Below are positions 11,081-13,073 of a stretch of 64,000 bases of DNA, piece after piece; positions within the stretch are counted from its first letter, which is position 1; each line of letters begins with the position of its first letter. Source of the DNA: Octopus vulgaris (Eukaryota); the NCBI GenBank assembly GCA_951406725.2, contig OX597819.1, positions 24,738,001 through 24,802,000 on the forward strand, written 5' to 3'. The notes under the pieces were generated by a model that was not told where the DNA came from, searched no databases, and saw only the letters and a program-made list of their open reading frames with translations. A program made the position numbers and the translations under genes.

Positions 11081-11429
11081 GATGTACATTTAAACACAAA
11101 AGAAGCAACATTTAACAGACAACTTTACACACTAGAATAAGCAGTCAAAACGACCAAAACCACATTTAAGAGCAATTTCGACACTATTTTATATTTATAA
11201 TGTCTATTGAATTTTATACATGCTAGGCCACTGGAAGTGAAATTTAAAAAAAACTCGCTACCCTATATAATTTACGTATATGATTTTAGCATTTTCATAA
11301 GATTAGTTTGTCATTGTTTTCATTTGTTGCCGACTAAAAGTGCGCCTTCGCGGTGAATTTGAAAAATTATAATATATAATGATGAGACACGTGTTATTTG
11401 TCTTTAAATTATATGCTAATGTTATGACG

Positions 11430-11502
11430 CGGTCACTGATGAGAATTTAGCGTAGCAAATTATTTTATTTGCTAAATTAAATCCGAAATCTATGTATGAC
11501 CG
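11430..11502 (+). ncRNA. Type I hammerhead ribozyme, near-canonical
   Basis: Stem I cggtca/tgaccg (6 bp). Core CTGATGA at 11436-11442. Long stem II gaattta..tagcaaat/atttgcta..taaatcc. GAAA at 11485-11488. Short stem III T(ctat)G. GUA triplet, predicted cut after 11496. Confidence 0.8.
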
Positions 11503-13073
11503 TAAAATATAACAAGATAAAAGTTTTTATTTTCCATTCCCTTTGAAGTTGCTCCTAAATGTGGTTTTGGTCGTTTTGACTGCTCCTTCTAGCGTGTAAA
11601 CCTGCCTGTTAAAGGTCGCTTCTCTTGTGTTTAAATGTACACTATTTTATATTGGTAATATGTTGTCTACTGATTTTTTATACATGCTAAGCCACTAGTA
11701 GTGAAATTTCTAAAAAACACTCGCTACCATATATATTTTATGTATATAGATATGTGTGTGTGTGTGTGCGTGCGCGCGTGTGTGTGTGTGTGTGTATATA
11801 TATATATATGTTTTTGAAAAGCAGAGTAGATGTTTCGTTTCTGGTTTTTTCGTTGTTCGAAAAAAAGTTAATTTTCTATGTTTTTGTCTTTACGTTTTCG
11901 TTTCTCGTTGTGTTCAACGTTTTTTTTTTGGGGGGGGGTTATGTCCTCTACCCGTATATGCATGTATATAAACATATATATGTAGGTATGTACATATATA
12001 TATTATTTATATATATGCATATATATATTATTTATATTATACATATATATACATATGTATGTATGTATTATGTATATATGTATGTATGTATGTATGTATG
12101 TATGTATACAATGTATATAGCCACGACATTAACCAAACCAGGTACAACTGCAATCCTTCCAACCTTGCAATAACTGTTTTGCTTTAATAATCGTTGAGGA
12201 TTCGTTTTTTACAATCGGTTGTATTCTTTATACCATATCCCTTTACTTTACCTACGACAAGACGTTTTCTTCTGTTGTGAACCATTGCTCTACTTCATCC
12301 ATAATTTTAGTGCCATCTAAATTGGCCATTCATGGTAAAGGGTTAAGTTCATGACATCCCAATTCTTTTTGGAAGCACCTTATATTGTCATCCTCGCGTG
12401 ACACATGATTCCTCAATTTCATCATCGTTTAACCCTTCGTATCATGTGGTCACTTCTTATTGCTAACTCAAAAAACAACTAACACATTGTTTGGGGTTTT
12501 TTTTGTTTTTAGATCACACTATACCATAACGCCGAGGCATTGCTTCCTTATTCCATACAATAACGTTTCAGAACACGAGCTACTTAATAAAACTCACCCT
12601 GTACTTTCCGCTTATTTCGCCATCCAGTAGTCACACTTTTCCCTCGTTTACGCTCTTACATTTTCAGCTGTAACTTGGTGTTGGTTCTCATTGTATTAAC
12701 TCTGCTGCCATCTTTTGATACATTAGCATGGATTCCTAAGATTTGGTTATGCCATCAGCCATAAGGAAATAAAACCGGAAACCCACTCTAAATCTTCAAA
12801 TCTGCGGAAGTAAATCAATTGATATTAAAAAAAAAAATTAAGTATGCAAATATGCATTTTTGTTTAACTTATACATAAAGAATAAGACGGAGAATCTAGT
12901 CAAGAAATATTCCTTGCGGCTGATAGATTGATATGCAGTTTTAGTGCTGGAATATTTTCTGTTATGAACTTGGAAAAGAGATATAAGAAAACACAAACGG
13001 TGAAGTAATCTGAAATTTTGCTTTGGAATGAATTAAGAGAACAGACTTCTAAGAATTGGTACTGGGCTACATT

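What the first reader, a model, noticed from the sequence alone, without database searches (positions are those of the whole stretch)
11082..11745. Hammerhead enclosed in a mixed inverted/direct repeat module (A-B-ribozyme-A'-B)
Segment A (about 11084-11180) recurs inverted at about 11544-11640. Segment B (about 11182-11275) recurs in direct orientation at about 11639-11740. The near-canonical hammerhead at 11430-11502 lies between them, and the module begins at the end of a 660-bp (TA)n. The copies are visibly diverged, so the arrangement is not recent.
Basis: partly seen in the sequence, partly recalled or inferred. Interest (0 to 1): 0.7.

Follow-up and report, generated by a model that had tools for sequence, protein, structure and literature searches.

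The report
Old hammerhead retrozyme, Penelope-type insertion
The repeats and the ribozyme motif are parts of one aged copy of a 460-base, protein-less repeat that is scattered through this animal genome, and the mirror-image layout was likely left when a Penelope-type retrotransposon enzyme copied its RNA from both sides of a cut in a TA repeat; this is a known kind of element.

Summary
In detail: A recurs inverted (89%), B recurs direct (83%), and a type I hammerhead with an intact core lies at 11430-11502. A-B-ribozyme-A'-B is not a fixed module. B, the hammerhead and A' are consecutive parts of one ~460-bp non-coding monomer. The window copy is 1.24 monomers forward plus a 99-bp inverted arm. 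Of 90 distinct genomic copies, 80 end at one of two fixed sites about 98 nt apart, mostly running into (TA)n; 5' ends vary; 32 carry an inverted arm of variable length. This is the partial-tandem, inverted, tailed footprint of Penelope-like elements, so the family is best read as a non-autonomous Penelope-mobilised non-LTR retrozyme. It is old: no two copies found were above about 93% alike. No coding partner was found among 50 GIY-YIG loci, and no RNA evidence of cleavage. Extra detail: the tail is about 98 nt rather than 30-40, and the region around the first end site forms covarying hairpins that a distant sister family seems to share. The scan reported the same architecture before on other, younger families in this genome.

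The parts
10408..11080 (.). (TA)n array on the left flank, the likely target site
   Evidence: 56 of 90 family copies have a TA-rich right flank against 550 of 6319 control 20-mers
11083..11181 (-). Segment A: inverted arm, monomer positions u371 to u3, outer end at the short (S) end site, eroded by a few bases
11181..11638 (+). One full monomer (458 bp here, 466 in copy L002; 31% GC; no long open frame)
11181..11279 (+). Segment B, first lap: start of the monomer; joins the inverted arm with 1 nt overlap
11430..11502 (+). Type I hammerhead: CUGAUGA 11436-11442, long stem II, GAAA 11485-11488, two-pair stem III, predicted cleavage after 11496; core intact, palindromic loop III mutated in this copy
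11545..11641 (+). Segment A': last part of the monomer
11570..11690 (+). Predicted multi-hairpin RNA domain formed by A' and the following B; the S end site (about 11652) lies inside it
   Evidence: contigs of other runs leave the element for TA repeats at 11652
11639..11747 (+). Segment B, second lap (partial tandem); 11653-11747 is the ~98-nt tail between the S and L end sites; the copy ends at L

Best explanation
The stretch is one aged insertion of a dispersed ~460-bp non-coding repeat with a type I hammerhead motif, likely a non-autonomous element (non-LTR retrozyme) that a Penelope-like RT/GIY-YIG enzyme pasted into a (TA)n tract. Shown: the monomer, two fixed 3' ends (S and L, about 98 nt apart), variable 5' ends, TA-rich flanks, variable inverted arms, and arms of one insertion that are closer to each other than to other copies. 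Inferred mechanism: the enzyme nicks both strands of a TA tract and each DNA end primes reverse transcription on the same RNA at one of two internal start sites. Here one end started at L and copied 578 nt (B', A', hammerhead, B); the other started at S and copied 99 nt (A). The two 5'-truncated cDNAs were joined head to head at 11181. Copying ran through the ribozyme cut site, so the template would have been an uncleaved multimer or a religated circle. The family hammerhead is predicted to have worked as a dimer through its palindromic stem III; this copy has lost the palindrome and is probably inert.
For: Dispersed family: 2434 first-look candidates, 40 scored; 138 fetched loci reduce to 90 distinct. 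3' ends at S in 54 and at L in 26 of 90; in the 44 loci picked by core-only queries 40 of 44, where the two windows cover 57 of 466 positions, p 3e-32. Inverted arm in 32 of 90; its outer end is at S or L in 19 of 32; of 18 with both ends classed, 14 use opposite sites (Fisher p 0.047). Within-insertion divergence 10.1% against 13.3% between, lower in 39 of 42 (the reference L002 and the duplicated L052 left out). Hammerhead: all 12 core positions intact in 51 of 69 copies; 93% of cells paired, stem I pair U-A in 38 and C-G in 26 copies, 0 of 500 shuffles as high. No 5' end within 5 nt of the cut site in 127 arms. The layout matches that described for Penelope-like elements (PMC8557442 passages) and the two RT start sites of PAc (PMC11167929). 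Penelope-type GIY-YIG frames of up to 781 aa exist in the genome, and several of those copies end in (TA)n.
Against: No autonomous partner was found: none of 50 GIY-YIG loci (of 148 matches) carries sequence like the monomer joined to its frame. The tail is about 98 nt, against 30-40 in the papers read. 4 of 18 classed insertions use the same site at both ends, and 13 of 32 inverted arms start at neither site. The S-left/L-right class is inflated by the first query, which had that layout. Only 1 of 71 loci checked held two whole hammerheads in tandem, so the family fails the 'active retrozyme' rule of Li et al. Stem covariation reflects a few subfamily changes counted many times. RNA reads of three runs gave no read at 99% identity and no pile of ends at the cut site. 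Cleavage and mobilisation were not tested.
Confidence: 0.85

Rival explanations
1. The monomer is simply the pseudo-LTR of a coding Penelope-like element, and these copies are its 5'-truncated ends, not an independent non-autonomous element.
For: Pseudo-LTRs carry hammerheads and give the same ends. Li et al. find retrozymes related to pseudo-LTRs. Only 50 of 148 GIY-YIG matches were inspected.
Against: Copies run monomer into monomer: 50 of 90 insertions exceed one monomer in total length and L007 holds two full monomers. No shared upstream flank was seen among 30 loci apart from common repeats. No long frame lies in the monomer.
Confidence: 0.07
2. The inverted arm A arose by L1-style internal twin priming: the second DNA end annealed inside the same RNA just upstream of where the first cDNA stopped. 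This changes how the inversion formed, not what the element is.
For: In this copy the forward arm stops at u1 and the inverted arm starts at u3. That contiguous geometry holds in 7 of 32 inverted copies (p 0.004), 3 of them away from S and L.
Against: 25 of 32 are not contiguous; 19 of 32 inverted arms start at a fixed site, 15 of them non-contiguous. This copy fits both models.
Confidence: 0.3
3. A-B...A'-B is the fixed terminal structure of a non-autonomous DIRS-type or inverted-repeat DNA element that encloses the ribozyme.
For: The layout in this one copy resembles split or inverted terminal repeats.
Against: 58 of 90 copies have no inverted arm; arm lengths run from 33 to 351 nt and junctions differ; ends run into (TA)n.
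Confidence: 0.02
4. The inverted A is a local rearrangement after insertion, such as a template switch next to the TA array.
For: A 673-bp TA array abuts A; arms within an insertion are more alike than between insertions.
Against: Inverted arms at unrelated loci start at the same two sites that end forward arms (19 of 32).
Confidence: 0.03

Closest known systems
Metazoan non-LTR retrozymes (Cervera and de la Pena 2020, PMC7229834, passages seen; Li, Clavereau and Pollet 2026, 10.64898/2026.07.22.740005, parts 1 and 3 of 5 seen)
   Same: Type I hammerhead in a non-coding, AT-rich head-to-tail monomer of a few hundred bases; short stem III with a palindromic loop as in amphibian dimer-type hammerheads; proposed dependence on Penelope-like elements.
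   Different: Monomer slightly above the 150-450 bp range; nearly all copies are shorter than two monomers; the family is old; circular RNA is not shown. The passages read do not describe fixed twin end sites or inverted arms for retrozymes.
EN+ Penelope-like elements (Craig et al. 2021, PMC8557442, passages seen; Frangieh et al. 2024, PMC11167929, parts 1 and 2 of 4 seen)
   Same: Partial tandems, 5' truncation, inverted 5'-truncated arm, a tail at one end defined by two RT start sites, hammerhead upstream of those sites, AT-rich or (TA)n targets.
   Different: No RT or GIY-YIG frame; tail about 98 nt rather than 30-40; start sites about 160 and 255 nt past the cut site; no sequence link to a coding element found.
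Non-autonomous Chlamys elements such as MRC1 (passage in PMC8557442)
   Same: Non-autonomous Penelope-type elements with pseudo-LTRs and head-to-tail insertions.
   Different: Those generally resemble their autonomous partner at the 3' end and belong to clades without canonical hammerheads.

Membership tests
Type I hammerhead ribozyme | Core CUGANGA, GAAA and NUH triplet in type I order | tested here: met
   All 12 positions intact in this copy and in 51 of 69 aligned copies
Type I hammerhead ribozyme | Three helices around the core, with covariation | tested here: met
   93% of 1305 cells paired; stem I U-A/C-G switch in 38/26 copies; slid controls 22-44%; stem III has only two pairs
Type I hammerhead ribozyme | Match to an Rfam hammerhead model | tested here: not met
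Type I hammerhead ribozyme | Self-cleavage after the triplet | not testable with these tools
   No pile of read ends at 11496 in low-depth RNA reads
Non-LTR retrozyme | Short, low-GC, non-coding head-to-tail monomer with a type I hammerhead | tested here: met
   458-466 bp, 31% GC, stops in all six frames, monomer junction read through in many copies
Non-LTR retrozyme | [quoted passage not shown] | tested here: not met
   This copy has one; 1 of 71 loci (L007) has two in tandem
Non-LTR retrozyme | Expression as linear and circular monomer RNA | tested here: inconclusive
   95, 91 and 113 reads in about 6% of three runs, both strands, none 99% alike to this copy
Non-LTR retrozyme | No LTR, primer-binding site or polypurine tract | not tested
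   No explicit scan was run; copies lack fixed 5' ends
Penelope-like element (EN+) | Partial tandem with fixed 3' end and variable 5' truncation | tested here: met
   80 of 90 ends at S or L; 5' starts spread over the monomer
Penelope-like element (EN+) | Inverted 5'-truncated arm | tested here: met
   32 of 90
Penelope-like element (EN+) | Tail at one end, 30-40 bp, from two RT start sites | tested here: inconclusive
   Two fixed sites exist and are mostly used at opposite ends (14 of 18), but they lie about 98 nt apart
Penelope-like element (EN+) | AT-rich or (TA)n target | tested here: met
   56 of 90 right flanks against 8.7% of control 20-mers
Penelope-like element (EN+) | RT plus GIY-YIG open frame | tested here: not met
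   None in the element; it can only be non-autonomous
Penelope-like element (EN+) | Sequence link to the pseudo-LTR of a coding family | tested here: inconclusive
   None in 50 of 148 GIY-YIG loci

The most novel reading that the evidence does not exclude
These retrozymes carry a dedicated, structurally conserved RNA signal (the A'-B hairpin domain) that sets two reverse-transcription start sites about 98 nt apart, conserved across sister families that barely align, and that recruits a Penelope enzyme in trans without sequence likeness to its pseudo-LTR. The copies would then map the RT recognition element of a Penelope-type system and record two ways of forming inversions.
Probability: 0.35. 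Interest if true: 0.55.

Novelty: new member of a known kind. Interest (0 to 1): 0.3.

Why it matters
The single copy is an inert relic. The family adds genomic support for the proposal that animal retrozymes are moved by Penelope-like enzymes, which Li et al. say they examined mainly in vertebrates and with little evidence on the life cycle. It also points to a testable cis signal, the hairpin domain around the S site, for where such an enzyme starts copying. The same architecture was already noted by this scan on younger families in the genome, which are better material for experiments.

Tried and rejected
Rfam: no hammerhead model matched. A strict pattern for a perfect family hammerhead found only 3 copies, in line with an old family. 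Partner search: one Pfam accession was not in the library; GIY-YIG gave 148 matches, 50 were inspected with DNA profiles of this family and its sister, with no joined homology. The one hit (L112) is an independent sister-family insertion between TA runs. A first structure string was out of register and was corrected. RNAalifold's own consensus for the A'-B region was weak (-6.85 kcal/mol) and missed the best covarying hairpin; this copy's fold there is marginal, z -1.84; the window monomer as a circle folds at z -1.18, against -3.31 for L002, and the minus strands score as well, so a rod-like circle is not supported. No RNA holder listed. No contig listed bridged this insertion and its flank, so it could not be dated against other organisms. 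A pile-up of 5' ends at the cut site was looked for and not found (0 of 127; many loci were picked with hammerhead-containing queries). A shared 10-mer resembling a splice donor in this monomer and in coding Penelope ends and possible Pol III boxes were seen by eye only and not pursued. Look-ups of earlier scan notes by sequence and by place gave nothing.

Full report
Observation. Segment A (11083-11179) recurs inverted at 11545-11641 (97 nt, 89%) and B (11181-11279) recurs direct at 11639-11747 (83%). A (TA)n array covers 10408-11080. Between the repeats lies a type I hammerhead: CGGTCA, CTGATGA at 11436, a long stem II, GAAA at 11485, a short stem III, the triplet GTA ending at 11496, and TGACCG. 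It folds at z -3.89. My pattern finds 3 such cores in the window against 0.04 per shuffled window. Rfam has no matching hammerhead model.

The family. The window lies in a 2.8-Gb genome of 227 contigs. The 663-bp stretch gave 2434 first-look candidates, of which 40 were scored. The shared unit is B-spacer-hammerhead-A', 458 bp here and 466 bp in copy L002, whose numbering (u1-u466) I use. It is 31% GC with stops in all six frames. Best matches between copies were 92-93% and only 3 copies match a strict hammerhead pattern, so the family is old. Contigs of four further runs, listed under four organism codes, hold many pieces of it.

Architecture. I fetched 138 family loci, 90 distinct. The forward arm ends at S (u460-u25, mostly u14) in 54, at L (u96-u120, mostly u112) in 26, and elsewhere in 10. 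In the 44 loci found by core-only queries, which do not select for ends, 40 end at S or L (p 3e-32). Right flanks are TA-rich in 56 of 90 against 550 of 6319 control 20-mers. 5' starts are spread over the monomer. An inverted arm is present in 32 of 90, 33 to 351 nt long; its outer end is at S or L in 19. Among 18 insertions with both ends classed, 14 use opposite sites (10 S-left/L-right, 4 L-left/S-right) and 4 the same site (Fisher p 0.047). The first query favours the S-left/L-right class. The window copy is an inverted arm u371-u3 joined with 1 nt overlap to a forward arm of 578 nt from u1 to u112 of the next lap.

One template. Repeated parts within an insertion differ by 10.1% pooled, against 13.3% between insertions, lower in 39 of 42 (L002 and L052 left out). 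For this copy the figures are 12.2% and 13.5%. This fits two arms copied from one RNA or one source and aged since. It cannot tell a circle from a linear multimer. No arm begins within 5 nt of the predicted cut site (0 of 127; 3 expected if uniform), and 16 of 19 new loci found with a hammerhead-free query cross it. The templates were therefore not simple cleaved linear monomers. In the PAc system, cleavage was not needed for insertion (PMC11167929).

The ribozyme. I aligned 69 of 77 hammerhead copies from the first 71 loci, dropping 6 second copies and 2 with deletions. All 12 core positions are intact in 51, this copy included. The named structure is paired in 93% of cells, and one stem I pair is U-A in 38 and C-G in 26 copies; 0 of 500 shuffles reached the score. 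These changes mark subfamilies, so they are few independent events. Stem III has two pairs inside an 8-nt palindrome, intact in 32 of 69; two such strands pair at -13.4 kcal/mol, while this copy's version gives -0.3. Dimer-type action is described for amphibian hammerheads with such a stem (PMC7229834 passages). I infer that the family ribozyme acted as a dimer and that this copy is weak or dead.

A structured end region. A' and the following B pair with each other. On 33 of 36 copies spanning the junction (3 with large indels dropped), a six-helix structure is paired in 93.7% of cells, and one hairpin has 4 of 9 pairs with changes on both sides; 0 of 500 shuffles reached the score. I drew that structure after seeing the sequences; RNAalifold's own consensus was weak and lacked that hairpin. 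A distant sister family, first seen in L112 (profile E 4e-5), aligns colinearly. By eye 11 of its 15 fetched copies end at positions homologous to S or L, and 3 copies spanning the junction fold into partly similar hairpins. This suggests a conserved signal for the start of reverse transcription, but it is not shown.

Mechanism. Penelope-like elements form partial tandems with an inverted 5'-truncated copy and a 30-40 bp tail at one end, and some favour (TA)n (PMC8557442 passages). In vitro, the PAc protein cuts and extends both DNA strands and starts at two internal RNA sites that bound the tail (PMC11167929). The family matches this point by point, with a longer tail. Best model: both ends of a cut TA tract primed on one RNA, one at L and one at S, and the truncated cDNAs were joined. 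A second route exists: in 7 of 32 inverted copies the inverted arm begins where the forward arm stops (p 0.004), as in internal twin priming (recalled from L1). This copy fits both routes.

Partner. The genome holds many Penelope-type GIY-YIG frames, some 781 aa long (Pfam check), with a CxxxxCxxC motif before the nuclease as described for Neptune and Nematis clades; several end in (TA)n. None of 50 inspected loci, of 148 matches, is joined to sequence like this monomer. The partner is unknown.

Expression. About 6% of each of three RNA runs gave 95, 91 and 113 reads, on both strands, none 99% alike to this copy, with no pile of ends. Loose ends point to sister families. This neither shows nor excludes circular RNA.

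Literature and novelty. Searches: Penelope + hammerhead + pseudo-LTR; hammerhead, octopus, retrozyme, two of three; Penelope-like + cephalopod + hammerhead; retrozyme, inverted, Penelope, tail, microsatellite, four of five. None of the listings showed a description of this family. Repbase and Dfam were not available and I read no supplements, so it may be catalogued there. Read: PMC8557442 and PMC7229834 as passages, PMC11167929 parts 1-2 of 4, 10.64898/2026.07.22.740005 parts 1 and 3 of 5. Earlier scan notes report the same twin-ended architecture for younger 360-bp and 485-495-bp families in this genome; they are unchecked and not counted as support. Verdict: new member of a known kind, interest 0.3.

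Noticed in passing
window 22100-22177 (+): A second type I hammerhead-like core (CTGAGGA ... GAAA ... GTA) in a stretch with a weak inverted repeat at 22065-22181; not matched by this family's profile.
   Followed up: partly
window 49041-49120 (-): A third hammerhead core with a palindromic stem III, next to a long TA array (48255-49539); only a weak match (E 1.4) to the sister-family profile, probably another retrozyme family.
   Followed up: partly
L112:428-1021 (-); loci L159-L173: An old sister hammerhead family that aligns colinearly with this one, with homologous S and L ends and inverted arms; 360 first-look candidates.
   Followed up: partly
L115, L117, L120 and others: A young Penelope-type family with 781-aa open frames, a C-terminal GIY-YIG domain and 3' ends in (TA)n; L117 also holds an inverted pair of hammerheads of another family.
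   Followed up: partly
window 10060-10400 (-), repeated at 8418-8735: A fragment that reads like the C-terminal end of a LINE protein followed by (AAT)n (label recalled; no Pfam match). It lies left of the TA array and is unrelated to the element.
   Followed up: partly
window 11845-11926: A fragment of another very abundant repeat right of the element, also seen in L112 and L125.
   Followed up: no
L052 (about 535-1950): A whole two-armed insertion is present twice, as a mirror image around a TA-rich spacer.
   Followed up: no
window 63648-63760: A short degenerate (GGGTTA)n telomere-like array far from the contig end.
   Followed up: no
window 25650-26307: Three and a half tandem copies of a ~180-bp unit of a common SINE-like repeat (label recalled).
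   Followed up: no
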